DNA from: Alphaproteobacteria bacterium
GTDB taxonomy: Bacteria; Pseudomonadota; Alphaproteobacteria; UBA2966
NCBI GenBank assembly: GCA_030740435.1
Contig: JASLXG010000066.1
Location: 24,603 to 88,602, forward strand
Length of the DNA: 64,000 nt
Reading direction: 5' to 3'
The notes under the pieces are model-generated. The model worked only from the letters and a program-made list of their open reading frames with translations, had not been told where the DNA came from and ran no database searches. The translations under genes and the position numbers were made by a program. Below are positions 3 through 36,714 of the stretch, in pieces; within the stretch, counting starts at the first letter, position 1, and each line of letters opens with the position of its first letter.

Positions 3-230
3 CACAACGGCAACTTCTTCGAACTCAGCGAAGTGGTCGAGTTCTACAACGAAGGCGGTGACCAGAACGAGTTCTCGGCCAACAAGACCAAGTTGCTCAA
101 GCCCCTCAACCTCTCGGACGAGGAGCAGGAGGACCTGGTGGCCTTCCTGGATTCCCTGAGCGGCGACGAAATCAAGATCACGTCGCCCAAGCTGCCGCCC
201 TATGCGCCGCTGCCGGCGTCGACGAATTGA
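3..230 (+). CDS. Cytochrome c peroxidase (CCP/MauG family) C-terminal fragment; the 5' end lies outside the window
   Basis: The frame starting at nt 3 translates to HNGNFFELSEVVEFYNEGGDQNEF...LNLSDEEQEDLVAFLDSL, the conserved C-terminal region of bacterial di-haem cytochrome c peroxidases. The stop is at 228-230. Confidence 0.55.
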   Translation, partial: HNGNFFELSEVVEFYNEGGDQNEFSANKTKLLKPLNLSDEEQEDLVAFLDSLSGDEIKITSPKLPPYAPLPASTN

Positions 231-244
231 GCGGGGATGCAATC

Positions 245-835: not shown

Positions 836-848
836 GGAGCCAGGAACG

Positions 849-5803: not shown

Positions 5804-5841
5804 GGAGGCAAACGAACGATGCCAATGAGGAGAGGATGACA

Positions 5842-10718: not shown

Positions 10719-12337
10719 TGGTTTCGCGCATCACCATGGCGCTGGGCTTGGGCCTTCTCGCTTTCGCGGTCTCGCCGGCCGAGGCCGCCGACGTCTCGCA
10801 GGATCCCCAGCCCGAGTTCACGGACGAGCTGCGGGCTGAAGGCCGGCAGATCTACTTCCAGCGCTGCAGCTTCTGCCACGGCCTGCTGGGCGACGGCGAG
10901 GGACCGGCGGCGCCCTTCATGGACCCCCGGCCGCGCGACTTCACGCTGGGCACCTTCAAGTTCCGCACCACCCAGTCGGGCGAGCTGCCGCAAGATTCAG
11001 ACATCTTCCGCACCGTCAGCCGCGGCCTCAGCGGCACCGCCATGCAGGCCTTCGACGACGAGCGCATCAAGAACGGCCTCAGCGAGCACCAGCGCTGGGC
11101 CGTGATCGCCTACATCCAGACCTTCGCCCAGGAGTTCGACGATGAGGAACTGGACCCGGTCAAGACCGGCAAGGTGGTGGCGCTGCCCAAGGACCGCCCG
11201 GCCTATGGCGCCGAAATCGTGGCCAAAGGCAAAGAAATCTTTCTCAAGGCCAAGTGCTGGGAATGCCACGGCAAGTCGGGCCGCGGCGACGGCCAAAAAT
11301 CCTTCGACCGCAAGGACGACTGGGGCTTTCCCATCCGCATCCGCAACGTCACCCATCCCTGGAAGATCAAGGCCGGCGACCGCGTCGAGGACATCTACAT
11401 GCGTTTCTCGACCGGCATCAGCGGCACGCCCATGCCGTCTTTCGTCAAGGCCCTGAGCGAGAGCGAACGCTGGCAGCTGGCCAACTTCATCAAGTCTTTG
11501 CAGATCCAGCGCACCAGCCACCAGGTGCTGAAGGCGCTGCGCCTGGAGGGCGAGCTGCCCGAGAGCCCGGATGATCCGCGCTGGAAGCAAGCCGAGCCCA
11601 TGGACGTGATTCTTACCGGGCAGGCCGTGGCGCCGCCGCGCTGGCAAAGCCCGTCGGTCGAGATGGTGACGCTGAGGGCCGTCTTCAATGACAACGAAAT
11701 CGCTTTCCGGCTGACTTGGGACGACCCCTTCAAGGACACCAAGCACGACGCCGGGCAGGAACTCGACGTCAAGGAGATCAGCGCCAGCGGCATCTACAGT
11801 TCATACGTCGACGTCAACGAGTTGGCGGTGCGCAAGCTGGAGACCTATCGCGACGCCGTGGCGCTGCAGTTTCCCGTGAAGCCCACCGAGGGCACCAGGC
11901 GGCCGCACTTCCTGCGCGGCTCGGCCTCGGATCCGGTGCATCTCTGGCTTTGGAAAGCCGATGAGGGCGCTGTCGAGGAAGCCGTCGGCCGGGGTTGGCG
12001 CCAAGGCCTGAGGCCGCAGCCCGAGGAGCAGCAGCAGGTCGCCGCCAAGGCCGCCTGGGACCAGGGGCGCTGGCAACTGGTGATGAAACGGCCCTTGCGC
12101 ACCGAGGACAAGAACGACGTCCAGTTCGAGGCCGGCCGCTTCATTCCGCTGTCGCTCAATGCCTGGGACGGCTCCAACGGCGAACACGGTTTGATCATGA
12201 GCCTCTCTAGTTGGTATTACGTCTTCCTCGAAGCGCCGACGCCGATCAGCGTTTACCTCTATACCATCCTGGCGATCTTGATCACGGGCGGTCTGGGTTT
12301 CTGGTTGATGAGAAAAGCTGAAGCGGAAGACGCCTAG
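10718..12337 (+). CDS. Di-haem cytochrome c fused to an EB_dh/DOMON-like haem-binding domain, with a C-terminal TM anchor (module 1)
   Basis: The ATG at 10718 overlaps the upstream stop (tgATG). Signal peptide MVSRITMALGLGLLAFAVSPAEA. Haem motifs CSFCHG and CWECHG. The C-terminal half (WDDPFKDTKHD...ALQFPVK...DPVHLWLWKAD...WQLVMKRPL) resembles the ethylbenzene-dehydrogenase gamma / DOMON haem b domain. Terminal helix YLYTILAILITGGLGFWLM. Confidence 0.65.
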   Translation: MVSRITMALGLGLLAFAVSPAEAADVSQDPQPEFTDELRAEGRQIYFQRCSFCHGLLGDGEGPAAPFMDPRPRDFTLGTFKFRTTQSGELPQDSDIFRTVSRGLSGTAMQAFDDERIKNGLSEHQRWAVIAYIQTFAQEFDDEELDPVKTGKVVALPKDRPAYGAEIVAKGKEIFLKAKCWECHGKSGRGDGQKSFDRKDDWGFPIRIRNVTHPWKIKAGDRVEDIYMRFSTGISGTPMPSFVKALSESERWQLANFIKSLQIQRTSHQVLKALRLEGELPESPDDPRWKQAEPMDVILTGQAVAPPRWQSPSVEMVTLRAVFNDNEIAFRLTWDDPFKDTKHDAGQELDVKEISASGIYSSYVDVNELAVRKLETYRDAVALQFPVKPTEGTRRPHFLRGSASDPVHLWLWKADEGAVEEAVGRGWRQGLRPQPEEQQQVAAKAAWDQGRWQLVMKRPLRTEDKNDVQFEAGRFIPLSLNAWDGSNGEHGLIMSLSSWYYVFLEAPTPISVYLYTILAILITGGLGFWLMRKAEAEDA

Positions 12338-13074: not shown

Positions 13075-13443
13075 ATGAAAAGATTGACCACCGCCGCTGC
13101 CTTCTGCACCCTGGCGTTTGCCCTGGCCGTTCCTTCGGCCCAGGCCGCCGATGCCAAGAAGGTCTACAACTTCTATTGCGCCCAGTGCCACGGCACCGCC
13201 GGCAAAGGCAAGGGACCCAACGTCACCAAGGACTTTCCCGTCAGCCCGCGCGACTTCACCAATGCCGCCGAGATGGACAAGCTCTCGGACGCCGACATGA
13301 AGAACGTGATTCTGGATGGCGGTCCGGCGGCCTCCAAGTCGCCCATGATGCCGCCCTGGTCCAAGACCCTGAAGGGCGACGAGGTTGACGCTCTGGTCGG
13401 CTACCTGCGCAAGTTCTGCGGCTGCAAGGGCAAGCAAGGCTAG
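13075..13443 (+). CDS. Periplasmic mono-haem cytochrome c, 122 aa (module 1 only)
   Basis: The RBS gggagga precedes the ATG at 13075. Signal peptide MKRLTTAAAFCTLAFALAVPSAQA. CAQCHG motif. Confidence 0.7.
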   Translation: MKRLTTAAAFCTLAFALAVPSAQAADAKKVYNFYCAQCHGTAGKGKGPNVTKDFPVSPRDFTNAAEMDKLSDADMKNVILDGGPAASKSPMMPPWSKTLKGDEVDALVGYLRKFCGCKGKQG

Positions 13444-13531
13444 TAAGGCGCCCGGTGCCGCCGGGGAGGCGGCGCCGCTTCGTTTCAATTTTGGGAGAAG
13501 GGAGCCGCCGCGGTCTTGGACACTGCGGCCT

Positions 13532-13897: not shown

Positions 13898-14014
13898 ATG
13901 AAGGACTACGTGGTGCCCTTTGTGGCGGCGTTCGTGGTGTGGGGTCTCCTCTTTCTCGGTCTCGACGTGGTGATCATGAACGCCCAGGGACTGAACCTGA
14001 TCTATCAGCCGTAG
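13898..14014 (+). CDS. Candidate 38-aa single-TM peptide (MKDYVVPFVAAFVVWGLLFLGLDVVIMNAQGLNLIYQP), 10 nt upstream of cydA-like 2
   Basis: Hand-translated ORF. The RBS gaggg lies 7 nt upstream of the ATG. In size and position it looks like a CydX-like small subunit. Confidence 0.3.
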   Translation: MKDYVVPFVAAFVVWGLLFLGLDVVIMNAQGLNLIYQP

Positions 14015-14023
14015 GGGGGACTG

Positions 14024-15880
14024 GTGACGCACAGCAAGGTTTTGACCGCCTGGCGCCCCTGGGTGCTGGCGGCTCTGGTGGCGACGCTGTTGCTGGCCCT
14101 GGTGCCGCTGCTGGGCAGCGCCCTGGATATCGCGTCGCCGGCCCTGGCGGCCGAAGGCGAGGCGGCGGCGGCGGCAAGCGGCGAGCAGGCGGCGGCCCCG
14201 GCCGGCCCGACCATCGCGCCGCCCAAACTGAAGAGCACCGACTATCCGGTTGTGGCCGGCGTCAACGGACGCATCTTCGTCTGGCTGGCGGCGCAATTGC
14301 ACCTCTGGTTCGCGGCCTTCGTGCTGGCCGTGCCGATCTTCGTCTTCATCATCGAAGCCATCGGCATGTACAGCCGCGACCAACGCTACGACAACATGGC
14401 CTACGAGTTCATCAAGGTCAGCATCACCGCCTATTCCCTGACCGCCATCCTGGGTGGCCTGTTGGCCATCGGCCTGATCGTTTTCTACCCGCACCTCTTC
14501 CAGTACATGTCCGGCGTCTTCAAGGAATCGATGGTCTGGTATGCGGTGCTGTTCTTCGCCGAAAGCGCCTGCCTTTACATCTATTACTACGGCTGGCACT
14601 GGCTGCAGGGCGGCTTCCGCAAGTGGGTTCATCTGACGCTGGGGCTGGTGCTGAATGGCGTCGGCACGACGCTGATGTTCCTGGCCAACGCCTGGCTCAC
14701 CTTCCAGATGAGCCCGGCCGGCGTCGATGCCGCCGGCCTCTATTCCGGCGACGTCTGGGCCGCCATCCACAATCCCTTGTGGAACCCCATCAACCTGCAC
14801 CGCATGATCGCCAACGTCGCCTACGGCGGCTCGGTGGTCGGCGCCTATGCCGCCTTCCGGTTTCTCTCGTCGCGCACGGCCGAGCTCAGGGCGCATTACG
14901 ACTGGATGGGCTACACCGCCAACTTCATCGCCATCAGCGCGCTCTTGCCGCTGCCCTTCGCCGGCTACTACCTGACGGCCGAGATCTACGCCTACAGCCA
15001 GCAGATGGGCATCACCCTGATGGGCGGCGTCTTCGCCTGGCTCTTCATCATCCAGGCGGTGCTGATCGGCACGCTGTTCCTCTCGGCCAACTATTATCTC
15101 TGGTGCGGCATGGGGCGCAGCGACGGGGCGCCGCGTTACAACCCCTATATCAAGTACATAGCCTTCGGTCTGGTGGCCTCGTTCCTGGTCTGGTTCACGC
15201 CCCACACCCTGGTGCTGACGAACGAGGAACTGAAGGCTCTGGGCGGGCCCTACCACAAGTACCTGGGGCCGCTGGGCATCATGCCGGCCAAGAACACGGC
15301 CGTGAACTACATGATCATCCTGACGGCGCTGAGTTTCCTGATTTACCGCCGCGCCAACAAGATCCCGACGGTAAGCTGGGTCAAGATCGGCAATGCCGTG
15401 CAGGTGGCCATGTTCACGGCCGCCGTCGTCAACATCCTTATCCTGGGCGTCTACCACGGCTACTTCACCAACACCGTCTACAAGGTGGCGAGCTCGATCC
15501 CCCAGGTGTTGACGACGCTGGTGGTGATCTTCGTCAGTACGCTCATCGACGTCTTCATGTACCGCGGCGCCAAGGACGTGGCGCCGCTGCATTGGGGCCG
15601 ATTGCCCGAACGCGCCCAGTACGCGCTCTTCCTGCTGGCCGTCTCGTTCACCTGGCTGATGGGCCTGATGGGCTACATCCGCTCGGGCATCCGCCAGCAC
15701 TGGCACGTGGTCGGCATCTTCCGCGACAACTCGGCCGACGCCTTCACGCCGACCCTGGCGGGCGGTGCCAATATCGTCTCTGTGGGGGTCATCATCTTCC
15801 TGGTGATGGTCATCTTCGTCTTCTGGGTCAGCCAGATCAGCGGCCGCAAGACCGAAGTGGCCGGATACTGGAGGACCTAG
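14024..15880 (+). CDS. Cytochrome bd subunit I (CydA)-like membrane protein, module 2, 618 aa with a signal peptide and an Ala-rich periplasmic N-terminal extension; no cydB
   Basis: AAQLHLWFAAFVLAVPIFVFIIEAIGM (His19-equivalent). FFAESACLYIYYYGW. PINLHRMIANVAYGGSVVGAYAA (His186-equivalent). About 55% identical to the module 1 paralog over conserved blocks. GTG start per the ORF track. Confidence 0.7.
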   Translation: MTHSKVLTAWRPWVLAALVATLLLALVPLLGSALDIASPALAAEGEAAAAASGEQAAAPAGPTIAPPKLKSTDYPVVAGVNGRIFVWLAAQLHLWFAAFVLAVPIFVFIIEAIGMYSRDQRYDNMAYEFIKVSITAYSLTAILGGLLAIGLIVFYPHLFQYMSGVFKESMVWYAVLFFAESACLYIYYYGWHWLQGGFRKWVHLTLGLVLNGVGTTLMFLANAWLTFQMSPAGVDAAGLYSGDVWAAIHNPLWNPINLHRMIANVAYGGSVVGAYAAFRFLSSRTAELRAHYDWMGYTANFIAISALLPLPFAGYYLTAEIYAYSQQMGITLMGGVFAWLFIIQAVLIGTLFLSANYYLWCGMGRSDGAPRYNPYIKYIAFGLVASFLVWFTPHTLVLTNEELKALGGPYHKYLGPLGIMPAKNTAVNYMIILTALSFLIYRRANKIPTVSWVKIGNAVQVAMFTAAVVNILILGVYHGYFTNTVYKVASSIPQVLTTLVVIFVSTLIDVFMYRGAKDVAPLHWGRLPERAQYALFLLAVSFTWLMGLMGYIRSGIRQHWHVVGIFRDNSADAFTPTLAGGANIVSVGVIIFLVMVIFVFWVSQISGRKTEVAGYWRT

Positions 15881-15883
15881 GCG

Positions 15884-16702
15884 ATGATGAACTTCCTCAA
15901 GGTGGCCCTCTTCTCGCTGGTCGTCATCGGCTTTTTCGCGGGCTATTCCAACTGGGGCATCCCGCAGATCGAGCCGGCGGCGCCGCCGGTGGAAGAAGTG
16001 CTCGATCTGGGCGCCATGACCATGGACGACTTCATCGCGCTGGGCGGCAAGATCTACAACGGCAAGGGCACCTGCACGCTCTGCCACAATGCCGTCGGCG
16101 GCCGGGCGCCCATGCTCGATACCGCCGCCGGCCTGGTTGCCGAACGCCTCAAGGACGCCCGCTACAAGGGCGAGGCCAGCGACGCCGAGGGCTATCTGCT
16201 GGAATCGCTGGTCAATCCCTCGGCCTTCGTGGTGGCGGGCTTCGGCAAGAAGGGGACAGCCGATGCCGAAAGCCCGATGCCCGACGTCTCGGGCGGCTCG
16301 GTGGGCTTGAGCGAGGTCGAACTGGCGGCCGTGGTGGCCTTCCTGCAGGATCTCGGCGGCACCGATGTGACGGTGGAGATCCCCTCGGGCGCCCAGGCCT
16401 CCGACGAAAGCGGCGACGAGGAGGGCGAGCCCCGGGCGGCCTACGCCTCGATCGAGGAACTGATCGCCGAGCAGTCCTGCGGCGCCTGCCACAAGGTGGC
16501 CGGCGAGGAAGGCGACGTTGGTCCGGACCTCAACGGCATCGGCGCCAAGTACGATCGCGACTACCTGCGCCGTTCCATCCTCGATCCCAATGCCGACATC
16601 GGCCAGGGCTTCGAGGCCGACACCATGCCGGCGGAATACGGCACCACCCTCTATGCCCAGGAACTCGAAATGCTGATCGACTACCTGGCCAAACTGAAAT
16701 GA
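15884..16702 (+). CDS. Membrane-anchored di-haem cytochrome c (module 2)
   Basis: N-terminal TM helix. Haem motifs CTLCH and CGACH. GPDLNGIGAKYDRDYLRRSILDP motif. It is a paralog of the gene at 8769-9746. Confidence 0.75.
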   Translation: MMNFLKVALFSLVVIGFFAGYSNWGIPQIEPAAPPVEEVLDLGAMTMDDFIALGGKIYNGKGTCTLCHNAVGGRAPMLDTAAGLVAERLKDARYKGEASDAEGYLLESLVNPSAFVVAGFGKKGTADAESPMPDVSGGSVGLSEVELAAVVAFLQDLGGTDVTVEIPSGAQASDESGDEEGEPRAAYASIEELIAEQSCGACHKVAGEEGDVGPDLNGIGAKYDRDYLRRSILDPNADIGQGFEADTMPAEYGTTLYAQELEMLIDYLAKLK

Positions 16703-16715
16703 GCAGGGGCGCGGC

Positions 16716-17483
16716 ATGAAAATTCCCAGGCTCCTGCTGTCGGTCATCACCGTCCTGGTCTTCTACGCCGCCTTCGAGGTGGTCTTCGGGCTGATCCTCG
16801 GGCAGCCCATCCCGGCCAGCCTGATGACCATGTACATGTTCTTCGTGGTTGCCGGCGTCTTCATGACGTTTACCTTCACCGAGGAAGGCGGCCGCGAGAT
16901 GGTGGCGCCGATCAAGGCGCTGGTCGAGGATCCCTCCAAACGCATGGTGCGCAACGTCGTCTTCGTCATCGTGCCGCTGCTGGCCGGTGGCCTGACGTAT
17001 TGGCAGATGCAGCCCTCCTTCGAGGCGCCGCTGGAGCTGCGTTCGATCCATCCGGCACCGCCCTCGAGCGCCAAGATCTACGGCAAGCGCTACGATCTGC
17101 TGACGCTGGAGAACCCGTTGCGCAAGTTCGAGAAGGAGGATCCCGAGAAGTTCCGCGAATTGGTGGCGGCGGGCGCCACGGTCTACATCGAGAACTGCCA
17201 GTACTGCCACGGCGACAAGCTCGATGGCCAGGGGCCCTACGCCCAGGGCCTCAATCCGGTGCCGCTCAACTTCCAGGACATCGGCACCATCGCCCAGCTT
17301 CAGGAATCCTACCTCTTTTGGCGCATTGCCACGGGCGGGCCGGGCCTGCCCAGCGAAGCCTCGCCCTGGCTCTCGTCGATGCCGGTGTGGCAGAGCTTCC
17401 TCAAGGAAGAAGAAATCTGGCAGGTCATCCTTTTCCTTTACGACTACACCGGCCACCGGCCGCGCTCATGGGAGCATGAATGA
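16716..17483 (+). CDS. Membrane-bound mono-haem cytochrome c (module 2)
   Basis: Three N-terminal TM helices. CQYCHGD motif. ...YLFWRIATGGPGLPSEASPW... It is a paralog of the gene at 9753-10718. Confidence 0.7.
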   Translation: MKIPRLLLSVITVLVFYAAFEVVFGLILGQPIPASLMTMYMFFVVAGVFMTFTFTEEGGREMVAPIKALVEDPSKRMVRNVVFVIVPLLAGGLTYWQMQPSFEAPLELRSIHPAPPSSAKIYGKRYDLLTLENPLRKFEKEDPEKFRELVAAGATVYIENCQYCHGDKLDGQGPYAQGLNPVPLNFQDIGTIAQLQESYLFWRIATGGPGLPSEASPWLSSMPVWQSFLKEEEIWQVILFLYDYTGHRPRSWEHE

Positions 17484-19024
17484 TGGCTGCGGTGACGATG
17501 GATAAAGTGCTGCGGGCGCTGGGCGCCGGTATCGTGCTGGCCGCTCTTTCGGCGGGTGCCGCCCTGGCCGTGCCGGGCAATGCCGAGAAGGGCGAAAAGG
17601 TCTACCAGTTCCGCTGCCTGGCCTGCCACGGCGACGAAGGCGACGGCCTGGGCCCGGCTGCCGAGCGCCTCAACCCGCCGCCTCGGGACTTTACGCTGGG
17701 GATTTATAAGATCAAGACCAGCGCCTTTGACGAAGACGCGCCCAACGACGACGACATCTTCCGCATGATCAAGGACGGCATGCCCGGAACCGCCATGCCG
17801 GGCTGGTCGGACGTGCTCAGCGAGCAGGACATGTGGGACCTGGTGGCCTATCTCAAGGTCTTCGCCGAGATCGAGGAGGCGCCGGAGGGCCAGATCGACT
17901 ACGGCAAGCAGATCGAAAGCTCGGCCGACAGCATCGCCCGTGGGCGTGAAATTTTCCTCGATGGCGAGCGCTGCTCCGAATGCCACGGCCGTGAAGGCCG
18001 CGGTGACGGCATCAAGAAGCTCAAGGACGACAACGGCGCCCGCACCTGGCCCAGGAACCTCACCAAGGCCTGGACCTATCGCGCCGACAACAGCGCCAAG
18101 GAGATCTTCCGCCGCGTCACGGTGGGTATTCCCGGCACCCAGATGCCGGCCTTCGCCGATCCCAAGTCGAAAAAGAAACTGAGCATCGAGGAACGCTGGC
18201 ACGTGGCCAACTATGTGGCCTCGCTGGCCAAGACGGTGGAGGTCGTCAATCCCTCCAAGACGGTGATCGTGGCGGCCAAGCTCGAGGGCGCGCTGCCGGC
18301 CAAGGTCGACGACCCGAAATGGGCCGAGGCGGCGCCCGTGACCTTCATGCTGGTGCCCCAGATCATCGCCGAGGACAGGTTCTTCACGCCGGCCCACGAC
18401 AGCATCACCGCCCGCGCCTTCTATAACGACGAAGCGATCGCCATGCTGCTGGAATGGGACGACCGCACCAAGTCCTTGCCCGGGGACGACAAGGCGGCCC
18501 AGATCGCGGACGAGGAGCTGAGCTCCGACATGGTGGCCGTGCAACTGCCGGTGACGATTCCCATAAGCCAGGAGAAGCCCTATTTCCTGATGGGCGACAA
18601 ATCCCATCCCGTGAACTTCTGGCGCTGGTCCAGCGGCGGCAAGGAGGCGTCCCAGGGCGTCGAGTTGATGAACGCCACCGGGCCCTACGAGTTCGCCGAA
18701 CGCGACGCCGCCAAGACTGGTCTCACGGCCAGCGGCAGCTACAAGGACGGCACCTGGCGGGTAGTCATGACCCGGCCCTTGCGCACCGATGATGCCGAGG
18801 GCGACCTGCAGTTCGAGGAGGGCCGCTTCATCCCCGTGGCCTTCGCCAACTGGGACGGCTCCAACAGCGAAAGCGAAACCAGCCACACCCTGACGACCTG
18901 GTACTGGCTGCTGCTCGAGCCGCCGACGGGGACGCGGCCCCTGATCACGGCCCTGATCGTAGTGCTGCTGCTGGCGGCGGCCGAGATCTGGTGGGCGCGT
19001 AGCGCCCGTGGGTCCGATGCATGA
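17480..19024 (+). CDS. Di-haem cytochrome c fused to an EB_dh/DOMON-like domain with a C-terminal TM anchor (module 2)
   Basis: Signal peptide. Haem motifs CLACHG and CSECHG. EB_dh-like block (WDDRTKSLPGDD...AVQLPV...HPVNFWRWSSGG...WRVVMTRPLRTDD). Terminal helix LITALIVVLLLAAAEIWW. It overlaps the upstream gene by 4 nt. Confidence 0.65.
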   Translation: MMAAVTMDKVLRALGAGIVLAALSAGAALAVPGNAEKGEKVYQFRCLACHGDEGDGLGPAAERLNPPPRDFTLGIYKIKTSAFDEDAPNDDDIFRMIKDGMPGTAMPGWSDVLSEQDMWDLVAYLKVFAEIEEAPEGQIDYGKQIESSADSIARGREIFLDGERCSECHGREGRGDGIKKLKDDNGARTWPRNLTKAWTYRADNSAKEIFRRVTVGIPGTQMPAFADPKSKKKLSIEERWHVANYVASLAKTVEVVNPSKTVIVAAKLEGALPAKVDDPKWAEAAPVTFMLVPQIIAEDRFFTPAHDSITARAFYNDEAIAMLLEWDDRTKSLPGDDKAAQIADEELSSDMVAVQLPVTIPISQEKPYFLMGDKSHPVNFWRWSSGGKEASQGVELMNATGPYEFAERDAAKTGLTASGSYKDGTWRVVMTRPLRTDDAEGDLQFEEGRFIPVAFANWDGSNSESETSHTLTTWYWLLLEPPTGTRPLITALIVVLLLAAAEIWWARSARGSDA

Positions 19025-19260
19025 CGCCGAACCCGGCGGCTGACGACGAGGAGTTACGGGACGAGGAACCGGTCCGCGGCGTCAAGACGCGTATGATCGG
19101 CGCCGGCTTGATCTTTCTCGGCGTTCTCGACAGTCTGCTCAGTTGGCGGGGCGGTTTCGAGCCCAGCCTGTTTCATTGGTTTCTGATTGCCGCCGGCATA
19201 CTGGTTTTTGCCATCGGCGCGATCCGGCAGAGGCGGGACGCCGGGTCTCCGTCACCCTAG
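19021..19260 (+). CDS. Small two-TM membrane protein (79 aa), translationally coupled to the preceding cytochrome
   Basis: Its ATG overlaps the cytochrome stop (gcATGA). Two hydrophobic helices (MIGAGLIFLGVLDSLL and WFLIAAGILVFAIGAI). Confidence 0.4.
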   Translation: MTPNPAADDEELRDEEPVRGVKTRMIGAGLIFLGVLDSLLSWRGGFEPSLFHWFLIAAGILVFAIGAIRQRRDAGSPSP

Positions 19261-19270
19261 GAGAGTGTCC

Positions 19271-20944
19271 ATGACTGCACCCGCGTCCAGCCAGCCAGCG
19301 CTGCAGGACGGTGCCCAGGCGTCGCCGCCCGACACGGCGCCGGTTTCCTTCAAGCGCTTCATCGTCGCCCTCGATGCTTCCGACCATGCCAACCGGGCGC
19401 TGGCCGAAGCGCTACGCCTCTCGGCCACGGCCGAGGGTGAGATCACCGGCATCCACGCCTATGCCGCGGCGCTGCATGACCGGCGCTTTCGCCAGATGGA
19501 AGGCGGCCTGCCCGAGCGCTACCTCGACGAAGAGGAAATGTCCTACCAGCGCGACGTCCACGACGACCTGATTACGCGCGGTCTCGACATCATCTCCGAC
19601 AGCTACCACGACCAGGCCGAGGCCGCCTGCGAGACGGCCGGGCTGCCTTATGCCCGCCTCAGCCCCGAAGGCAAGAACGCGAGCCGCATCGTCGAAGCCC
19701 TCGAGGCCGGGGGCCACGACGTGCTGGCCATGGGTGCGCTGGGCCTGGGAGCGGTGCCGGGCAGCCTGATCGGCACCGTCTGCGAGCGCGTGGTGCGGCG
19801 CTCGCCGATCGATGTGCTCGTCGTTCGCGATGTCGAACGGGCCATCGGCGAGGGGCCGGTGGTGGTCGGCCTGGATGGCTCGCCACAGTCCTTCGGGGCG
19901 CTGCTCACGGGCTTCGAGATGGCCCGCCGGCTCGGCGTCGAGCTGCATGCCGTGGCGGCCTACGACCCCTACTACCACTACGTCGCCTTCAACCGCATCG
20001 CCGGCGTGCTCAGCGACGAAGCCGGCAAGGTCTTTCGCTTCAAGGAACAAGAACAGCTGCACGAGGAACTGATCGACGAGGGCATCGCCAAGATCTATCA
20101 GTCCCACCTCGAGGTGGCGTCGCGCACGGCCAAGGATGCCGGCGTCGAGCTCGTCACCAAGCTCCTGGACGGCAAGCCCTTCAAGGCCATCGAGGCCTAT
20201 GTCCGTGAGGTCGGCGCCAGCCTGCTGATGCTGGGCAAGACCGGCATCCACGGCGACGCCATGATCGATATCGGCGGCAACACCGAAAACCTCTTGCGTC
20301 TCGCGCCCTGCCACGTCTGGATCGGCCAGGCCAGCCACGTGCCGGCGCTGGATATCGTCGCCGCCGAAAGCATCAGCTGGAGCCATGAGGCCGAGGCGCT
20401 GCTCAACCGCGCCCCCGAATTCGCCCGTGGCATGGCCCGCCAGGCGGTGATCCGCTTTGCCCATGCCCGGGGCAACACCTACATCACGTCGGATCTGGTC
20501 GAGCAGGTGGCGGCCAAGATGATGCCCGGCCGGGGCCAGGCGGAGGCGGCCGCGGCCAGCCCGGAAACGGTCTGGAGCGCCGCCGCCGAAGCCGAGCTGG
20601 CCAAGCTCGATGATGCCAACCAGGCCGCCGGTGTTCGCCTGCGGGCGGAAAAGCGGGCTCGCCGCGAGGGCGCGGCCGAGGTTGGCGCCGAGCACGTGCG
20701 GGCCTTTGTCGAGGCGCCGGCCGCGGCCACGCTGCCTTGGGCCGCGGCGGCGCTGGCCCGGCTGACCAGGGTGCCCGAGGCCATGCGCGATCGCACCCGG
20801 GCGCGCATCGAAGAGGTGGCGCGCGAGCAGGGCGCCACCGAGGTCACGCTGGCGATCTGCGAGCTGGGCCTCGAAGAGGCCCGCAAGGCCATGCACGAGG
20901 CCATGGTCAAAGGCGGTCACACCAAGACGGTCGAAGACGATTGA
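19271..20944 (+). CDS. Tandem universal stress protein (UspA) domains with C-terminal PCP_red-like repeats
   Basis: The RBS ggagag precedes the ATG at 19271. Two UspA-like blocks (FKRFIVALDASDHANRAL...; PVVVGLDGSPQSFGALL...IDVLVV). The C-terminus has two P-[EA]-x-[MA]-R-x-x-x-R-x-[RI]-x-E-x-x-A-R-x-x-G repeats resembling the BchB C-terminal PCP_red domain. Confidence 0.6.
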   Translation: MTAPASSQPALQDGAQASPPDTAPVSFKRFIVALDASDHANRALAEALRLSATAEGEITGIHAYAAALHDRRFRQMEGGLPERYLDEEEMSYQRDVHDDLITRGLDIISDSYHDQAEAACETAGLPYARLSPEGKNASRIVEALEAGGHDVLAMGALGLGAVPGSLIGTVCERVVRRSPIDVLVVRDVERAIGEGPVVVGLDGSPQSFGALLTGFEMARRLGVELHAVAAYDPYYHYVAFNRIAGVLSDEAGKVFRFKEQEQLHEELIDEGIAKIYQSHLEVASRTAKDAGVELVTKLLDGKPFKAIEAYVREVGASLLMLGKTGIHGDAMIDIGGNTENLLRLAPCHVWIGQASHVPALDIVAAESISWSHEAEALLNRAPEFARGMARQAVIRFAHARGNTYITSDLVEQVAAKMMPGRGQAEAAAASPETVWSAAAEAELAKLDDANQAAGVRLRAEKRARREGAAEVGAEHVRAFVEAPAAATLPWAAAALARLTRVPEAMRDRTRARIEEVAREQGATEVTLAICELGLEEARKAMHEAMVKGGHTKTVEDD

Positions 20945-20957
20945 GCATGGGAGGCTC

Positions 20958-22250
20958 ATGAACGCCCAGGCCCATATCGCCGAACCTCCCTTCCTGGTTG
21001 CCCTCAACCTGACGCGGCGGTGCAACCTGGCCTGCGCGCACTGCTACCTCGATGCCGGTACCCGGAGTGACGGGACGGCCGGCGAGATGGGCACGGCCGA
21101 GGTAACGGCGCTGCTCGTCGACATCGCGGCGCTGGACGACGAGACCATGGTGGTACTGACCGGCGGCGAGCCGCTGCTGCGCCGCGATATCGAGGATATC
21201 GCCCGCCATGGCGCCGATCTCGGCCTGATGGTGGTGCTGGGCTCCAATGGCACGCTGCTCGATGGTCCTCGCGTGGCATCGTTGGCGGCGGCCGGCGTGC
21301 GCGGCGTTGGCATCAGCCTCGATTCCCTCGACCCGGCCTACCACGACGGCTTCCGCGGCCGGCCCGGAGCCTGGGAGCAGGCCATGAACGGCATCGACGC
21401 CTGCCGCCGGAGCGGGCTCGGATTCCAGATCCACTTCTCGGCCACCGAGGAGAACGCGGCCGAGCTCGACGACATGATCGCCTTCGCCAAAAGTTCCGGG
21501 GCGCTGGTGCTGAACGTTTTTTTTCTCGTCTGCACCGGTCGCGGCGAGCGTTTCTCGGGCATCTCGGTGAAAACCTACGACCGGGTGCTGGAACGCCTGA
21601 CGGAGGCCGCCCACGACGATACGGGACCCCTGGTGCGGGCCAAGTGCGCGCCCCATTTCCGCCGCCTGGCGATCGAGCTCGATCCGGCCTGGGCGATCAC
21701 GCCGATGCACGGCTACGAGGCCGGTGGCTGTTTGGCCGGCAGCCGTTATTGCCGAGTCACCCCCGAGGGCGAGGTGACGCCGTGCCCCTACATCGAAGAG
21801 CCGGCGGGATCGCTCAGCCAGACAAGTTTCGCCGAGATTTGGCAGGGTGCCGAGCTCTTCGCCCGGCTGCGCCAGCCTGAGCTCGGCGGGCGTTGCGGCG
21901 TTTGCGAATACCGCCGTGTCTGTGGCGGCTGCCGGGCCCGGCCGGCGGCCCGCGACGGCGACCTGATGGGCGAGGATTTCCTTTGCGGCTACCAGCCCCG
22001 GGGCGGTGCCGTGATCGAGCCCCTGGTGCTGGCCGAGAGCGCTCTCGACTGGTCGCGCGAGGCGGAGCAGCGCTTGCGGCGCGTGCCCGCCTTCCTGCGC
22101 CGCATGGTGCGCCGCCGGGCCGAGGTTTTCGTGCGCGGCGAAGGCCGACAGCAAGTCGAGGCCGATGACCTCCAGACCCTGGCGCGGCGGCGCTTTGGCG
22201 AGGCCGGCCCGCCGCGGCCCGAATTTGACGGAGAGCGCCGTGAGCTTTGA
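20958..22250 (+). CDS. Radical SAM enzyme with a SPASM-type auxiliary Cys cluster and a C-terminal PCP_red-like domain (NirJ/AhbD-like)
   Basis: CNLACAHCY (CxxxCxxC) radical-SAM motif. C-terminal Cys cluster CPYIEE...CGVCEYRRVCGGCRAR, typical of SPASM. The tail RRVPAFLRRMVRRRAEVFVRGEGRQQVEADDL matches the PCP_red-like repeats of the upstream USP. Confidence 0.65.
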   Translation: MNAQAHIAEPPFLVALNLTRRCNLACAHCYLDAGTRSDGTAGEMGTAEVTALLVDIAALDDETMVVLTGGEPLLRRDIEDIARHGADLGLMVVLGSNGTLLDGPRVASLAAAGVRGVGISLDSLDPAYHDGFRGRPGAWEQAMNGIDACRRSGLGFQIHFSATEENAAELDDMIAFAKSSGALVLNVFFLVCTGRGERFSGISVKTYDRVLERLTEAAHDDTGPLVRAKCAPHFRRLAIELDPAWAITPMHGYEAGGCLAGSRYCRVTPEGEVTPCPYIEEPAGSLSQTSFAEIWQGAELFARLRQPELGGRCGVCEYRRVCGGCRARPAARDGDLMGEDFLCGYQPRGGAVIEPLVLAESALDWSREAEQRLRRVPAFLRRMVRRRAEVFVRGEGRQQVEADDLQTLARRRFGEAGPPRPEFDGERREL

Positions 22251-23637
22251 CGCAGCCATCATCGGCGGCGGCATCTCGGGCCTGGCCACGGCCGAGGAAC
22301 TGCGCCGGCGGGGCCGCTCGGTGGTGCTGTTGGAGCGCCAGGTGGCGGCTGGCGGCAAGGCCTTTTCGGAACGCCTGGGCGGCTTTCTCATGGAGCACGG
22401 ACCCAGCACCGTCGGTGCTCACGTCGCGGCGGCCACCGACTGGTCGCAGCGCCTGGAGTTGGAGACCGAGCGCTGCGAGCTGGGCCCCGCCGTGCGCCGG
22501 CGCTATCTGGTGGCCGGGGGGCGTCTCGAAGGTATGGCCAGCCATCCCTTCAGCCTGCTCAGCTCGGGTTATCTCTCGCTGCCGGCCAGGCTTCGGCTGC
22601 TGGCCGAGGTGGTGCTGCCCCGCGGCCGGGAGGGCGACGACGAATCGGTGGCCCAGTTCGCCCGCCGCCGCTTCGGCCGCGAGGTCGCCGAGCGCCTGGT
22701 CGATCCCCTGGTCGGTGGTATCTACGCCGGGCGGGCCGACGAGATTTCGCTGCGTGCCGCCTTTCCGGCGCTGCATGAGCTGGAGCGCCAGTACCGTTCC
22801 GTGGTGCTGGGCGTGGCGGCGCGGCGCTGGCGCGGCGGCCGCATGCCGGGCGGCCGGCTGTTTTCCTGGCGCCACGGCGTGGCCAGCCTGCCCCGGGCGC
22901 TGCAGCGGAACCTGGGCCAAGCCTTGCGTACCGGCATCGCCGTGCAGGGCCTGGAACGCGGGCGCCGGGGCTTTAGGCTGCTGACGCCAGAGGGTGAGCT
23001 TGAAGCCCGGGCCGTGGTCATTGCCACCCAGCCCCACATGACGGCGGCCCTGATCGAGAAGCTGGACCCGACCGCGGCCGAGGCCGCCGCCGGCGTGGCG
23101 GCGCCGTCGCTGGCCGTGGTTTATCTCGGCTACCGGCGCCAGCAGGTCGAACACGCGCTCGACGGGCTGGGCTTCCTGGCGGCGGCCGACGAAGGCCGGG
23201 CCCTCAACGGCGCCCAATTTTGCTCGACCATGTTCAGCCACCGGGCGCCGGCCGGCCACGTCGCCCTGGCCGCCTATTTCGGCGGTGCCCGCAATCCTGA
23301 TCTGGGCTTGCTGCCGGCCGACGATCTGGTGGCCTTGGCGCGGCGCGAGTTTGGCGATCTGGTCGGCGCCCGCGGCGAGCCGGTGCTGGCGCGGGTGCGC
23401 CACTGGCCGCGCGGTTTGCCGCAATACGCTGCCGGTCACGTCGAGCGGGTGCGGGATTTGGCGGCGCTGCCGCAGCGCCTGCCCGGCCTTTTCCTCACCG
23501 GCAACTATTTTCGCGGACCCTCCGTGGCGGCCTGTCTGGAACTTGCCGATGAGACCGCGGCCCGGCTCGACGGCTTCCTCGCCGGGCTAGGCGAGAGCAG
23601 CGACCGGGCCCCTATCAAGGCTGCCGCAAGCCGCTGA
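22240..23637 (+). CDS. FAD-dependent protoporphyrinogen/coproporphyrinogen oxidase-family protein (HemY/CgoX-like)
   Basis: GTG at 22240 overlaps the radical-SAM stop by 11 nt. The N-terminal dinucleotide fold AIIGGGISGLATAEELRRRGRSVVLLERQVAAGGKA and the overall length fit HemY-type amine-oxidase-fold enzymes. Confidence 0.6.
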   Translation: MSFDAAIIGGGISGLATAEELRRRGRSVVLLERQVAAGGKAFSERLGGFLMEHGPSTVGAHVAAATDWSQRLELETERCELGPAVRRRYLVAGGRLEGMASHPFSLLSSGYLSLPARLRLLAEVVLPRGREGDDESVAQFARRRFGREVAERLVDPLVGGIYAGRADEISLRAAFPALHELERQYRSVVLGVAARRWRGGRMPGGRLFSWRHGVASLPRALQRNLGQALRTGIAVQGLERGRRGFRLLTPEGELEARAVVIATQPHMTAALIEKLDPTAAEAAAGVAAPSLAVVYLGYRRQQVEHALDGLGFLAAADEGRALNGAQFCSTMFSHRAPAGHVALAAYFGGARNPDLGLLPADDLVALARREFGDLVGARGEPVLARVRHWPRGLPQYAAGHVERVRDLAALPQRLPGLFLTGNYFRGPSVAACLELADETAARLDGFLAGLGESSDRAPIKAAASR

Positions 23638-23661
23638 TCGGCGTCTTCGAAGGCCGGAAAG

Positions 23662-23689
23662 TGACGCCCTTTTTGGGCGTTATTTTTTT
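23662..23689 (+). terminator. Rho-independent terminator (stem acgccc / loop ttttt / stem gggcgt, then tattttttt) ending the 23.6-kb cluster
   Basis: Read directly from the sequence 25 nt after the HemY-like stop. An AT-rich region follows. Confidence 0.6.
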
Positions 23690-36705: not shown

Positions 36706-36714
36706 GATCCGCCC

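What the first reader, a model, noticed from the sequence alone, without database searches (positions are those of the whole stretch)
19271..23637. USP / radical-SAM-SPASM / HemY-like trio sharing PCP_red-like domains, a putative cofactor-tailoring unit for the cytochrome system
These three genes follow the cytochrome modules directly, with only 8-13-nt gaps or overlaps.
- They are a tandem-USP protein with two PCP_red-like repeats.
- Next is a SPASM radical-SAM enzyme of NirJ/AhbD type with the same PCP_red-like tail.
- Last is an FAD protoporphyrinogen/coproporphyrinogen-oxidase-family enzyme.

Alphaproteobacteria normally use HemJ or HemF/N rather than HemY/AhbD-type enzymes. This may be a dedicated tetrapyrrole-modification route (modified haem for the bd-like or EB_dh sites) or a redox-sensing unit. 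The shared small domain hints at a common interaction partner.
Basis: partly seen in the sequence, partly recalled or inferred. Interest (0 to 1): 0.6.

Follow-up and report, generated by a model that had tools for sequence, protein, structure and literature searches.

The report
Haem-handling gene cassette beside bd-like cytochromes
Three co-transcribed genes (a stress-protein scaffold, an AhbD-like radical-SAM enzyme and a protoporphyrinogen-oxidase-family flavoenzyme) form a haem-handling cassette that sits beside poorly understood bd-like respiratory cytochromes in at least two bacterial phyla, which suggests a dedicated, undescribed cofactor supply or maturation system for those cytochromes.

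Summary
Window 19271-23637 encodes three tightly packed genes:
- a tandem-USP protein with three PCP_red repeats (Pfam finds two);
- an AhbD-family radical-SAM/SPASM enzyme with one C-terminal PCP_red;
- a HemY-family oxidase closest to Myxococcus protoporphyrinogen oxidase.

They end an apparent operon that starts with a bd-like (probably OR-N-type) cytochrome, two cytochromes c and a cytochrome c/EB_dh protein.

In about 80 related loci that keep the PCP_red tail, down to 40% identity, the USP–PCP_red plus rSAM–PCP_red pair is the conserved core (43 of 54 informative loci). It lies next to the same bd-like module in 24 of 54, in Rhodospirillales and Gemmatimonadales. HemY is a lineage-specific addition, recruited in at least two divergent forms. 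Other lineages add an Mrp/NUBPL ATPase, a Zn-ribbon–PCP_red protein and a ferredoxin.

The rSAM scores with tetrapyrrole enzymes rather than peptide maturases, and it has AhbD's exact eight-cysteine SPASM spacing. It stays below the equivalog cut-offs.

Best reading: a dedicated, O2-independent late-haem synthesis and hand-over cassette for the adjacent cytochromes. Haem tailoring or a HemW-like chaperone role remain open. I found no literature on this association.

The parts
13898..14014 (+). 38-aa single-TM peptide directly upstream of bd-like gene B; probable first gene of the operon that ends with the trio (possible small oxidase subunit).
   Evidence: 58% identical to a called 38-aa gene at the same position in L001. 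One hydrophobic segment.
14024..15880 (+). Cytochrome bd subunit-I-like membrane protein (module B); only the N-terminal part matches canonical CydA.
   Evidence: Pfam Cyt_bd_oxida_I E=2.3e-14, profile positions 3-231 of 418. No NCBIfam family. Orthologues lie next to rSAM–PCP_red in 24 of 54 informative loci.
15884..16702 (+). Dihaem cytochrome c (cB1).
   Evidence: Pfam Cytochrom_C; 2 CXXCH motifs.
16716..17483 (+). Monohaem cytochrome c (cB2).
   Evidence: Pfam Cytochrome_CBB3 and Cytochrom_C; 1 CXXCH motif.
17480..19024 (+). Two cytochrome c domains fused to an EB_dh (periplasmic haem-b-binding) domain.
   Evidence: Pfam EB_dh E=1.7e-22 plus Cytochrom_C. NCBIfam DMSO_red_II_gam 102 bits.
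19021..19260 (+). 79-aa membrane protein, conserved in the Rhodospirillales loci.
   Evidence: tblastn hits at the same position in L001, L004, L007, L009, L010, L015, L016 and L077.
19271..20944 (+). Tandem-USP protein with three C-terminal PCP_red repeats (557 aa).
   Evidence: Pfam Usp x2 and PCP_red x2. Best PDB hit is the tandem USP Rv2623. Adjacent to rSAM–PCP_red in 43 of 54 loci.
19349..19828 (+). USP domain 1, with an ATP-binding-type motif G-x2-G-x9-G-T at residues 155-169.
   Evidence: Pfam best stretch 27-186; motif regex.
20372..20506 (+). PCP_red repeat 1 of the USP protein (residues 368-412).
   Evidence: Pfam stretch 370-412; custom HMM E=4.7e-19.
20573..20701 (+). PCP_red repeat 2, degenerate (residues 435-477); missed by Pfam.
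   Evidence: Custom PCP_red HMM E=2.5e-9. Most orthologous USP proteins carry 2 or 3 repeats and a minority carry 5.
20732..20863 (+). PCP_red repeat 3 of the USP protein (residues 488-531).
   Evidence: Custom HMM E=3.8e-18. Aligns to ChlB 2XDQ_B residues 455-502.
20958..22250 (+). AhbD-family radical-SAM/SPASM enzyme with a C-terminal PCP_red domain (430 aa).
   Evidence: Pfam. NCBIfam AhbD 293 and NirJ2 289 bits, both below the 500 cut-off. AF2 model pLDDT 88, pTM 0.85.
21006..21485 (+). Radical-SAM core with CX3CX2C (C22, C26, C29) and GGEP (residues 69-72).
   Evidence: Pfam 17-176. Residues are invariant or nearly invariant in 21 family representatives.
21645..21986 (+). Full SPASM region with eight cysteines: C230, C258, C276, C313, C316, C322, C325, C343.
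   Evidence: Spacing 27/17/36/2/5/2/17 fits the AhbD motif CX20-33CX17CX36-37CX2CX5CX2CX17-35C of PMC10452713. All eight are invariant in A1.
22044..22175 (+). PCP_red domain of the rSAM (residues 363-406); three helices in the model.
   Evidence: Pfam 365-406, 45.8 bits. PDB 2KRU, BchB C-terminal domain. Custom HMM E=1.2e-17. Helices 367-374, 378-394 and 402-413.
22240..23637 (+). HemY-family FAD oxidase (protoporphyrinogen/coproporphyrinogen oxidase family), 465 aa.
   Evidence: TIGR00562 220.7 bits against a cut-off of 97.85. PDB 2IVD 266 bits, 3I6D 177, 1SEZ 156.
23654..23676 (+). Weak terminator-like hairpin 17 nt after the HemY stop; probable operon end.
   Evidence: Consensus scan. The total number of sites is not above the shuffled expectation, so this is only suggestive.

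Best explanation
The three genes are the Rhodospirillales version of a conserved cytoplasmic haem-handling cassette. The cassette is co-transcribed and co-inherited with bd-like (probably OR-N-type) cytochrome / cytochrome c / EB_dh respiratory modules.

**Proposed mechanism**
- The rSAM is an active AhbD-type enzyme, with one radical-SAM cluster and two auxiliary [4Fe-4S] clusters. It performs O2-independent oxidative decarboxylation of propionate side chains to vinyl groups on a copro-type tetrapyrrole. The substrate is either Fe-coproporphyrin III, as in AhbD, or coproporphyrinogen III, as in the analogous CgdH reaction.
- The translationally coupled HemY oxidises the porphyrinogen macrocycle.
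- The PCP_red modules derive from the BchB C-terminal domain. In DPOR, a C-terminal helix of BchB is reported to cover the tetrapyrrole cavity. Here they are proposed to hold or pass on the tetrapyrrole, or to dock the USP protein to the rSAM.
- The USP protein acts as a nucleotide-gated scaffold or regulator.
- The product is delivered to the many haem sites of the adjacent complex under low O2.

**Shown:** the domain content, the cluster-binding motifs, the family placement, the operon structure, and the cross-phylum linkage to the cytochrome module.

**Inferred:** the substrate, the product, the role of PCP_red and USP, and delivery to the complex.
For: - **Family placement.** The best NCBIfam hits of the window protein and of four diverse rSAM–PCP_red representatives are always the two AhbD-type models, at 270-330 bits. 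Peptide maturases score far lower.
- **Motifs.** CX3CX2C, GGEP and all eight SPASM cysteines are invariant or nearly so across the family. Their spacing is exactly that of the full AhbD motif (PMC10452713).
- **HemY linkage.** HemY-family genes passing TIGR00562 sit immediately downstream in three lineages. They are mutually divergent: window-type; the L021-24 type at 28-35% identity (251.8 bits); and L091 at 224.9 bits. This argues for repeated recruitment of porphyrinogen oxidation next to this rSAM.
- **PCP_red origin.** PCP_red matches the BchB/ChlB C-terminal domain (2KRU, 2XDQ_B). PMC4071322 reports that a BchB C-terminal helix covers the protochlorophyllide cavity.
- **Operon structure.** Gaps from the bd-like gene through HemY are 13 nt or less, or overlaps.
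- **Linkage elsewhere.** USP–PCP_red is adjacent in 43 of 54 informative loci, the bd-like gene in 24 of 54 and the EB_dh cytochrome in 20 of 54. Gene order and orientation vary, and rSAM identity falls to 40%. A Gemmatimonadales MAG has Mrp/NUBPL, PCP_red protein, ferredoxin, USP–PCP_red, rSAM–PCP_red, bd-like, 2 cyt c, cyt c/EB_dh, COX2-1-3-4 and UbiA.
- **Fusions.** PCP_red copy number varies from 1 to 5 per protein. Some rSAMs carry 3-4 repeats, which ties the domain functionally to the rSAM.
- **Precedent.** AhbD is known to replace ChdC in some organisms that lack other Ahb enzymes, and its reaction is analogous to CgdH (PMC13564367; PMC7242693).
- **USP and low O2.** USP genes flanking electron-transport operons are induced at low O2 in Nitrospira marina (PMC8115632).
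Against: - The rSAM fails the curated AhbD and NirJ2 equivalog cut-offs (293 and 289 bits against 500). A PCP_red-less relative, P0167, passes at 533 bits. It is therefore a sister family, not an orthologue.
- No ferrochelatase, AhbA/B/C, ChdC, HemN or URO-D family was found anywhere in the 64-kb window. None was among the most frequent neighbours in 16 other loci.
- The adjacent HemY looks like a protoporphyrinogen oxidase rather than a coproporphyrinogen oxidase. A coproporphyrin-type route would therefore need enzymes not seen here.
- HemY needs O2 or another acceptor, whereas the rSAM is presumably O2-sensitive.
- HemY is absent from most distant loci.
- A subgroup (L025-L031) has the pair next to ODP, UbiE and a B12-rSAM, with no bd-like gene within 10 kb.
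- No structure or assay exists for any member. Whether PCP_red binds tetrapyrrole outside DPOR is unknown, and I could not confirm that the Pfam domain coincides with the cavity-covering helix.
Confidence: 0.5

Rival explanations
1. Haem tailoring. The rSAM, with HemY where present, converts haem b or a late precursor into a distinct, modified haem. That haem is used specifically in the bd-like subunit or the EB_dh site. The parallels are NirJ for haem d1 and CtaB/CtaA for haem o/a, whose genes sit beside their oxidases.
For: - Linkage is to one particular cytochrome module across phyla, not to general haem-synthesis genes.
- The family is a separate clade below the AhbD cut-offs and carries an extra tetrapyrrole-related domain.
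- In the Gemmatimonadales locus the same gene string ends with a UbiA-family gene after COX1-4. This placement is typical of haem O synthase, my inference from the gene's position.
- NirJ, AhbC and AhbD show that this rSAM clade has diversified in side-chain chemistry (PMC7242693).
Against: - No spectroscopic or chemical evidence for an unusual haem in bd-like enzymes was found in the papers read.
- All catalytic motifs are indistinguishable from AhbD.
- A subgroup lacks a nearby bd-like gene.
Confidence: 0.2
2. Haem chaperone or insertase. The rSAM–PCP_red and USP–PCP_red proteins bind finished haem b and insert it into the apo-cytochromes of the adjacent complex. The precedent is HemW, a CgdH-derived radical-SAM protein that inserts haem into NarI.
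For: - There is precedent for a tetrapyrrole rSAM turned haem chaperone that needs its [4Fe-4S] cluster (PMC10114771).
- The association is with a haem-b membrane complex rather than with biosynthetic genes.
- Repeated PCP_red modules would suit ligand holding or transfer.
- Co-occurring Mrp/NUBPL and ferredoxin genes would service the clusters.
Against: - All eight auxiliary-cluster cysteines and the SAM-binding GGEP motif are strictly conserved. This suggests real redox catalysis.
- Recurrent recruitment of HemY points to chemistry on a porphyrinogen, not only transport.
- The EB_dh haem site is periplasmic and out of reach of a cytoplasmic chaperone.
Confidence: 0.15
3. Ordinary housekeeping or hypoxia-regulon genes. 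The rSAM and HemY are simply this organism's late haem enzymes, or low-O2 isoenzymes. They are placed beside a low-O2 respiratory operon for co-regulation and have no specific relationship to that complex. The USP is a generic stress regulator.
For: - AhbD occurs in organisms lacking other Ahb genes (PMC13564367).
- USP genes flank low-O2-induced operons in N. marina.
- The rSAM-to-bd identity correlation (r=0.79, Mantel p about 5e-4) would also arise from shared organismal phylogeny.
Against: - Adjacency persists through rearrangements, inversions and at least two phyla.
- The USP shares the rare PCP_red domain with the rSAM, and the two are sometimes fused in copy number.
- No other haem-pathway genes cluster with them.
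Confidence: 0.1
4. Not a tetrapyrrole system. The SPASM rSAM would modify a peptide or protein, for example a subunit of the complex, or a quinone or other cofactor. PCP_red would be a protein-protein or peptide-recognition module, and the unit would serve redox sensing.
For: - Structural neighbours in the PDB are peptide-modifying SPASM enzymes (SkfB, PqqE, SuiB, anSME), because no AhbD or NirJ structure exists.
- One subgroup sits next to UbiE and a B12-rSAM.
- Small conserved membrane peptides lie nearby.
Against: - Sequence profiles clearly prefer tetrapyrrole rSAMs.
- The cysteine spacing is AhbD-specific.
- HemY is recruited repeatedly.
- PCP_red is otherwise known from a tetrapyrrole enzyme.
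Confidence: 0.05

Closest known systems
AhbD / NirJ2 haem b synthase (radical-SAM/SPASM; TIGR04545, TIGR04055)
   Same: - It is the best-scoring family.
- It has the CX3CX2C motif.
- It has the full eight-cysteine SPASM motif with identical spacing, at almost identical positions to M. barkeri AhbD: C223/256/274/312/315/321/324/342 there, C230/258/276/313/316/322/325/343 here.
- It shares about 40% identity with AhbD-length relatives.
   Different: - It scores 293 and 289 bits, below the 500-bit equivalog cut-offs.
- It carries an extra C-terminal PCP_red domain, 1-4 copies across the family.
- It has no AhbA/B/C neighbours.
- It is always partnered with a USP–PCP_red protein and usually with a bd-like cytochrome module.
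HemY family: protoporphyrinogen oxidase PgoX (M. xanthus, 2IVD) and coproporphyrinogen oxidase CgoX (B. subtilis, 3I6D)
   Same: - It gives a full-length match above the TIGR00562 cut-off.
- It has the N-terminal FAD motif.
- It scores 266 bits to 2IVD over residues 4-440.
   Different: - Substrate specificity is not determinable from sequence.
- It is translationally coupled to an AhbD-like rSAM rather than placed in a hem operon.
- It is present only in some lineages of the cassette.
BchB/ChlB C-terminal domain of dark-operative protochlorophyllide reductase (Pfam PCP_red; 2KRU, 2XDQ_B)
   Same: It is a roughly 45-residue helical module with the W-x-x-E-A-x-x-x-L-x-x-(I/V)-P-x-F-x-R signature. 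It scores above the Pfam gathering threshold.
   Different: - There is no nitrogenase-like Oxidored_nitro domain, so this is not DPOR.
- Here the module is fused to USP, to an rSAM, or to a Zn-ribbon, and it is repeated up to five times.
HemW, the radical-SAM haem chaperone derived from CgdH/HemN
   Same: It is a tetrapyrrole-type radical-SAM protein functionally tied to haem b acquisition by a respiratory membrane complex (PMC10114771). The parallel is by analogy of context only.
   Different: HemW belongs to a different rSAM lineage (HemN-like, no SPASM domain). No homology beyond the rSAM core is claimed, and the role here is untested.
OR-N cytochrome bd-like 'terminal oxidase' clusters (Murali et al. 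bioRxiv 2021.01.16.426971; TO_1 of Nitrospirota/Manganitrophus, PMC9040806)
   Same: The neighbouring module combines a bd-like CydA lacking the quinol site with c-type cytochromes and a periplasmic cytochrome b.
   Different: Those descriptions, in the text I could read, do not mention an associated radical-SAM, USP or PCP_red cassette. I did not place the window's CydA-like proteins in a named OR-N subfamily.

Membership tests
AhbD haem b synthase (TIGR04545 / TIGR04055 NirJ2) | N-terminal radical-SAM motif CX3CX2C | tested here: met
   C22-x3-C26-x2-C29; nearly invariant in 21 family representatives.
AhbD haem b synthase (TIGR04545 / TIGR04055 NirJ2) | Full SPASM motif CX20-33CX17CX36-37CX2CX5CX2CX17-35C, which ligates two auxiliary [4Fe-4S] clusters (PMC10452713) | tested here: met
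   C230, C258, C276, C313, C316, C322, C325 and C343, with spacings 27/17/36/2/5/2/17. All eight are invariant in alignment A1.
AhbD haem b synthase (TIGR04545 / TIGR04055 NirJ2) | Score at or above the curated equivalog cut-off (500 bits) | tested here: not met
   292.9 and 288.9 bits. Other rSAM–PCP_red members score 270-330. The PCP_red-less relative P0167 passes at 533.
AhbD haem b synthase (TIGR04545 / TIGR04055 NirJ2) | Pathway context: AhbA/B/C, or the coproporphyrin route (CgoX + CpfC) | tested here: not met
   No such Pfam families were found in the window or among the frequent neighbours. Only a HemY-family gene is adjacent. The rest of the genome was not available.
AhbD haem b synthase (TIGR04545 / TIGR04055 NirJ2) | Converts Fe-coproporphyrin III to haem b | not testable with these tools
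   This needs an anaerobic enzyme assay.
HemY family (protoporphyrinogen/coproporphyrinogen oxidase, TIGR00562) | Full-length profile match above the curated cut-off | tested here: met
   220.7 bits against 97.85, residues 4-447.
HemY family (protoporphyrinogen/coproporphyrinogen oxidase, TIGR00562) | N-terminal FAD dinucleotide-binding motif, and end-to-end similarity to solved PPOs | tested here: met
   - GGGISG at residues 9-14.
- 2IVD at 266 bits over residues 4-440, 3I6D at 177 bits, 1SEZ at 156 bits.
HemY family (protoporphyrinogen/coproporphyrinogen oxidase, TIGR00562) | Substrate: protoporphyrinogen IX (PgoX) or coproporphyrinogen III (CgoX) | tested here: inconclusive
   It is closer to PgoX-type structures than to CgoX-type. 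The same holds for the two other HemY types found beside the rSAM. Similarity ranking is not a specificity test.
Universal stress protein, tandem type (PF00582) | Two USP domains, with the ATP-binding motif G-2x-G-9x-G(S/T) | tested here: met
   Two Pfam stretches. The motif is present at residues 155-169 in domain 1 and is degenerate in domain 2. The best PDB hit is the tandem USP Rv2623.
PCP_red (PF08369) / DPOR subunit B | PCP_red domain above the gathering threshold | tested here: met
   80.4 bits (USP protein) and 45.8 bits (rSAM) against 32.5.
PCP_red (PF08369) / DPOR subunit B | Nitrogenase-like catalytic body of BchB/ChlB (equivalog TIGR01278) | tested here: not met
   Only positions 452-506 of 512 match, at 52.9 bits against a cut-off of 490. 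These are not DPOR subunits.
Peptide-modifying SPASM maturases (the alternative considered) | Best profile match to a RiPP or protein maturase family, with an adjacent precursor peptide | tested here: not met
   The best maturase models score 126 bits or less, against 293 for AhbD. No candidate precursor peptide was identified.

The most novel reading that the evidence does not exclude
The USP–PCP_red / AhbD-like rSAM–PCP_red cassette may be a previously unrecognised, phylum-spanning cofactor-biogenesis system for OR-N-type bd-like oxidases. Depending on lineage it also includes HemY, an Mrp/NUBPL ATPase, a Zn-ribbon–PCP_red protein or a ferredoxin. On this reading it makes and delivers a haem chemically distinct from haem b. 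PCP_red would be a portable tetrapyrrole-holding module borrowed from (or lent to) protochlorophyllide reductase. The parallels are NirJ for haem d1 and CtaA/CtaB for haem a.
Probability: 0.2. Interest if true: 0.85.

Novelty: new variant of a known kind. Interest (0 to 1): 0.62.

Why it matters
Cytochrome bd-like (OR-N) complexes are proposed terminal oxidases of nitrite oxidisers, manganese oxidisers and many uncultured bacteria. Their cofactors and biogenesis have not been characterised.

A conserved cassette of an AhbD-type radical-SAM enzyme and a partner protein, both carrying a domain otherwise known from a tetrapyrrole enzyme, gives a concrete and testable handle on how these complexes get their haems. 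It also bears on whether the haem is unusual.

It would further:
- extend AhbD-family chemistry into Alphaproteobacteria and Gemmatimonadota;
- give the orphan PCP_red domain a possible general role;
- name thousands of metagenomic proteins now labelled only 'radical SAM protein'.

Tried and rejected
**Approaches that gave little**
- Structure prediction plus Foldseek against the PDB returned only generic SPASM enzymes: SkfB, PqqE, SuiB and anSME. No AhbD or NirJ structure exists, so fold comparison cannot discriminate function. Coordinates are not returned, so I could not test whether PCP_red caps the active site.
- Sequence search of the PDB gave the same picture for the rSAM.
- Literature searches found nothing describing this architecture or association. 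I searched PCP_red/PF08369, bd-like with radical SAM or USP, and AhbD with bd-like or OR-N.
- The papers on DPOR structures (PMC2930732, PMC3568340) are not held. The claim that PCP_red itself is the cavity-covering element therefore rests on one secondary statement.
- The first genome scan with a single protein found only close relatives. The alignment-based metagenome scan was needed to reach distant ones.
- The identity-matrix correlation between the rSAM and the bd-like protein is significant but not diagnostic. Any two vertically inherited genes would correlate.

**Readings rejected**
- DPOR-related function: there is no nitrogenase-like domain.
- Peptide maturase: profile scores do not support it.
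- A complete Ahb pathway: no AhbA/B/C genes are present. By contrast, the PCP_red-less loci L085-L098 show tandem rSAMs that probably are AhbC/AhbD.

**Not done**
- The reverse census: what fraction of bd-like modules carry the cassette.

Full report
**1. What is there**

The + strand of window 19271-23637 carries three genes.
- Gene 1 (19271-20944, 557 aa) starts at an ATG preceded by AGGAG.
- Gene 2 (20958-22250, 430 aa) follows after 13 nt.
- Gene 3 (22240-23637, 465 aa) starts at a GTG that overlaps gene 2 by 11 nt. The same overlap is called in the orthologous locus L001.

Pfam and NCBIfam give the following.
- Gene 1 has two Usp domains and two PCP_red domains.
- Gene 2 has Radical_SAM, SPASM and one PCP_red.
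- Gene 3 has Amino_oxidase and passes TIGR00562 (protoporphyrinogen oxidase), 220.7 bits against a cut-off of 97.85.

An HMM built from the family's own PCP_red copies shows a third, degenerate repeat in gene 1, at residues 435-477.

**2. Operon context**

Upstream on the same strand, with gaps of 13 nt or less or overlaps, lie:
- a 38-aa membrane peptide (13898-14014);
- a bd-like CydA homologue (14024-15880);
- two cytochromes c;
- a cytochrome c/EB_dh fusion (17480-19024);
- a 79-aa membrane protein (19021-19260).

A hairpin with a T-tail lies at 13453-13477, before this block. A weak one lies at 23654-23676, after HemY. Such sites are no more frequent than in shuffled sequence, so they are only suggestive.

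Further upstream are a second bd-like module and then three more genes:
- a CarboxypepD_reg-like gene (5836-6618);
- a HEAT-repeat gene;
- an arsenite-oxidase/iodate-reductase-like Mo enzyme with its Rieske subunit.

The 3' end of a cytochrome c peroxidase gene lies at the window edge. No other haem-biosynthesis family was found anywhere in the 64 kb.

**3. The radical SAM**

- *Profile placement.* The best profiles are the two AhbD-type models: TIGR04545 at 293 bits and TIGR04055 (NirJ2) at 289. Next come TIGR04053, NirJ and AhbC. Peptide maturases score 126 bits or less. All scores are under the curated cut-offs.
- *Cluster-binding motifs.* The protein has CX3CX2C and GGEP. It has eight SPASM cysteines (C230, 258, 276, 313, 316, 322, 325, 343). 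Their spacing, 27/17/36/2/5/2/17, fits exactly the full AhbD motif defined for M. barkeri and sulfate reducers (PMC10452713). All eight are invariant in 21 representatives.
- *Breadth of the family.* A full-library search shows that the group at 50% identity or more collapses to one representative. About 25 further 50%-identity clusters, at 40-54% identity, keep the PCP_red tail. Some have two, three or four copies.
- *Relatives.* Diverse members all hit AhbD/NirJ2 best, at 270-330 bits. A PCP_red-less relative passes the NirJ2 cut-off at 533 bits.

The family is therefore a sister of AhbD, not AhbD itself. The AF2 model is confident (pLDDT 88, pTM 0.85) and shows PCP_red as three helices. Fold search returns only generic SPASM enzymes, because no AhbD or NirJ structure exists.

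**4. HemY and PCP_red**

The oxidase aligns end to end with solved structures:

| Structure | Enzyme | Bits |
|---|---|---|
| 2IVD | M. xanthus protoporphyrinogen oxidase | 266 |
| 3I6D | B. subtilis HemY (CgoX) | 177 |
| 1SEZ | tobacco PPO | 156 |

Two other, mutually divergent HemY-family genes sit in the same position next to rSAM–PCP_red in other lineages. One is the L021-24 type, only 28-35% identical to the window's. The other is in L091. The L022 and L091 genes both pass TIGR00562 and also rank PgoX-type structures first.

PCP_red matches the C-terminal domain of BchB/ChlB (2KRU, 2XDQ_B residues 455-502). A BchB C-terminal helix is reported to cover the protochlorophyllide cavity (PMC4071322). 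I could not verify that this helix is the Pfam domain.

**5. Conservation elsewhere**

Sixteen genome loci and two contigs of close relatives, all Rhodospirillales-like MAGs and mostly marine, show the same trio. It follows either the bd-like module or the Mo-enzyme/HEAT/CarboxypepD_reg block.

An alignment-based metagenome scan gave 80 more loci, down to 38% identity. I clustered neighbouring ORFs across the 82 loci that keep the PCP_red tail. In the 54 loci with at least 4 kb of flank, the counts are as follows.

| Neighbour | All informative loci (of 54) | Close set (of 17) | Distant set (of 37) |
|---|---|---|---|
| USP–PCP_red | 43 | 16 | 27 |
| bd-like gene | 24 | 8 | 16 |
| EB_dh cytochrome | 20 | 10 | 10 |
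| HemY family | 19 | 15 | 4 |
| Mrp/NUBPL P-loop ATPase | 15 | 0 | 15 |
| Zn-ribbon–PCP_red protein | 11 | 0 | 11 |

Gene order and orientation differ between lineages.

One distant clade is Gemmatimonadales. In MAG GCA_035538515.1 the gene string is:
- NUBPL-type ATPase;
- PCP_red protein;
- ferredoxin;
- USP–PCP_red;
- rSAM–PCP_red;
- bd-like gene;
- two cytochromes c;
- cytochrome c/EB_dh;
- CarboxypepD_reg;
- COX2, COX1, COX3, COX4;
- UbiA.

A subgroup (L025-L031) instead has ODP, UbiE, a B12-rSAM, USP, rSAM and DUF4149, with no bd-like gene within reach. Loci whose rSAM lacks PCP_red (L085-L098) often show tandem rSAMs, probably true AhbC/AhbD.

rSAM and bd-like identities correlate (r=0.79, Mantel p about 5e-4). 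That is compatible with co-inheritance but also with plain phylogeny.

**6. Interpretation**

*Shown:*
- an AhbD-family enzyme with all cluster ligands;
- a HemY-family oxidase;
- a nucleotide-binding-type USP;
- a shared, repeated BchB-derived module;
- tight operonic coupling;
- cross-phylum linkage to a specific cytochrome module.

*Inferred:* the cassette supplies or matures haem for that module.

The most economical mechanism is O2-independent propionate-to-vinyl decarboxylation by the rSAM plus macrocycle oxidation by HemY. AhbD and CgdH do the same chemistry on coprohaem and coproporphyrinogen respectively (PMC7242693). AhbD is known in organisms without other Ahb genes (PMC13564367). 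On this reading PCP_red and USP hold or gate the tetrapyrrole. I give this about 0.5.

Because the HemY looks PgoX-like and is translationally coupled downstream, a CgdH-like role on coproporphyrinogen is as plausible as a coprohaem role.

The rivals are:
- haem tailoring, 0.2;
- a HemW-like chaperone (PMC10114771), 0.15;
- mere co-regulation of housekeeping or hypoxia genes (see PMC8115632), 0.1;
- a non-tetrapyrrole function, 0.05.

**7. Relation to what is known, and novelty**

The components belong to known families. The architecture (AhbD-like + PCP_red, USP + PCP_red) and its association with bd-like modules have no curated NCBIfam model. Neither appears in the searchable literature.

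The cytochrome bd superfamily paper and the Manganitrophaceae paper describe OR-N and 'TO' clusters. In the text available they mention no such accessory genes.

I therefore class the finding as a new variant of a known kind. It is of moderately high interest because it offers an experimental entry into the cofactor biogenesis of bd-like oxidases.

Noticed in passing
window 3-3521 (and L002, L008, L013, L020): - The window opens with the 3' end of a di-haem cytochrome c peroxidase gene, 56% identical to CCP2 of L002.
- A Rieske subunit (62-835) and an arsenite-oxidase-like Mo subunit (804-3521) follow. The Mo subunit scores 401 bits on TIGR02693, against a cut-off of 359.
- Two CCP genes upstream of the Rieske and Mo genes in related loci recall the idrABP1P2 iodate-reductase signature.
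- Two bd-like putative O2-reducing modules lie directly downstream. That could fit a cryptic-oxygen or peroxide-handling respiration.
   Followed up: partly
window 3608-5803: A 731-aa HEAT-repeat protein with an acidic (E/P-rich) linker lies between the Mo enzyme and the cytochrome modules. It is conserved at 41-44% identity at the same position in L008, L013, L014, L020, L022 and L023. Its function is unknown.
   Followed up: partly
window 5836-6618: A secreted CarboxypepD_reg/fn3-like protein (260 aa) was missed by a simple ORF pick. It is conserved next to bd-like modules in 14 loci. In Gemmatimonadales (L099) it lies between the EB_dh cytochrome and COX2. Because of it, the true start of bd-like gene A is probably the GTG at 6650, not the ATG at 6455.
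   Followed up: partly
window 13075-13443, 13453-13477, 13898-14014: An unlisted 122-aa monohaem cytochrome c closes module A, 66% identical to a called gene in L001. It is followed by a GC-rich hairpin with a T-tail. A conserved 38-aa single-TM peptide sits immediately before bd-like gene B and may be a CydX-like small subunit.
   Followed up: partly
L036, L045, L062-L064, L071-L074, L082, L084, L099: In soil and Gemmatimonadales relatives the cassette gains three genes: an Mrp/NUBPL-type Fe-S carrier ATPase, a small Zn-ribbon (RUBY_RBDX-like) + PCP_red protein that is always next to it, and in L099 a small ferredoxin. In L099 the bd-like module is followed by COX2-COX1-COX3-COX4 and a UbiA-family gene.
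   Followed up: partly
L025-L031 (e.g. L031 4284-11792): A 50%-identity subgroup has the order ODP (di-iron O2-binding lactamase-fold), UbiE methyltransferase, B12-binding radical SAM, USP–PCP_red, rSAM–PCP_red, DUF4149/CopD-like membrane protein. No bd-like gene lies within 10 kb. This is a different context that the haem-for-bd-like model does not explain.
   Followed up: no
window 9753-10718 / 10622-12337: The listed ORFs of cytochrome cA2 and the cyt c/EB_dh protein of module A overlap by 97 nt. The start of the latter is probably downstream of the GTG at 10622.
   Followed up: no
window 34.6-37.3 kb (- strand) and 41.0-45.8 kb (+ strand): Cytochrome b of a bc1 complex lies at 35452-36714, with a Rieske/UCR_Fe-S gene beside it. 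A MoxR / DUF58 / BatA-DUF4159 (aerotolerance-type) cluster lies at 41.0-45.8 kb. This is ordinary chromosomal context with no further haem-synthesis genes.
   Followed up: no
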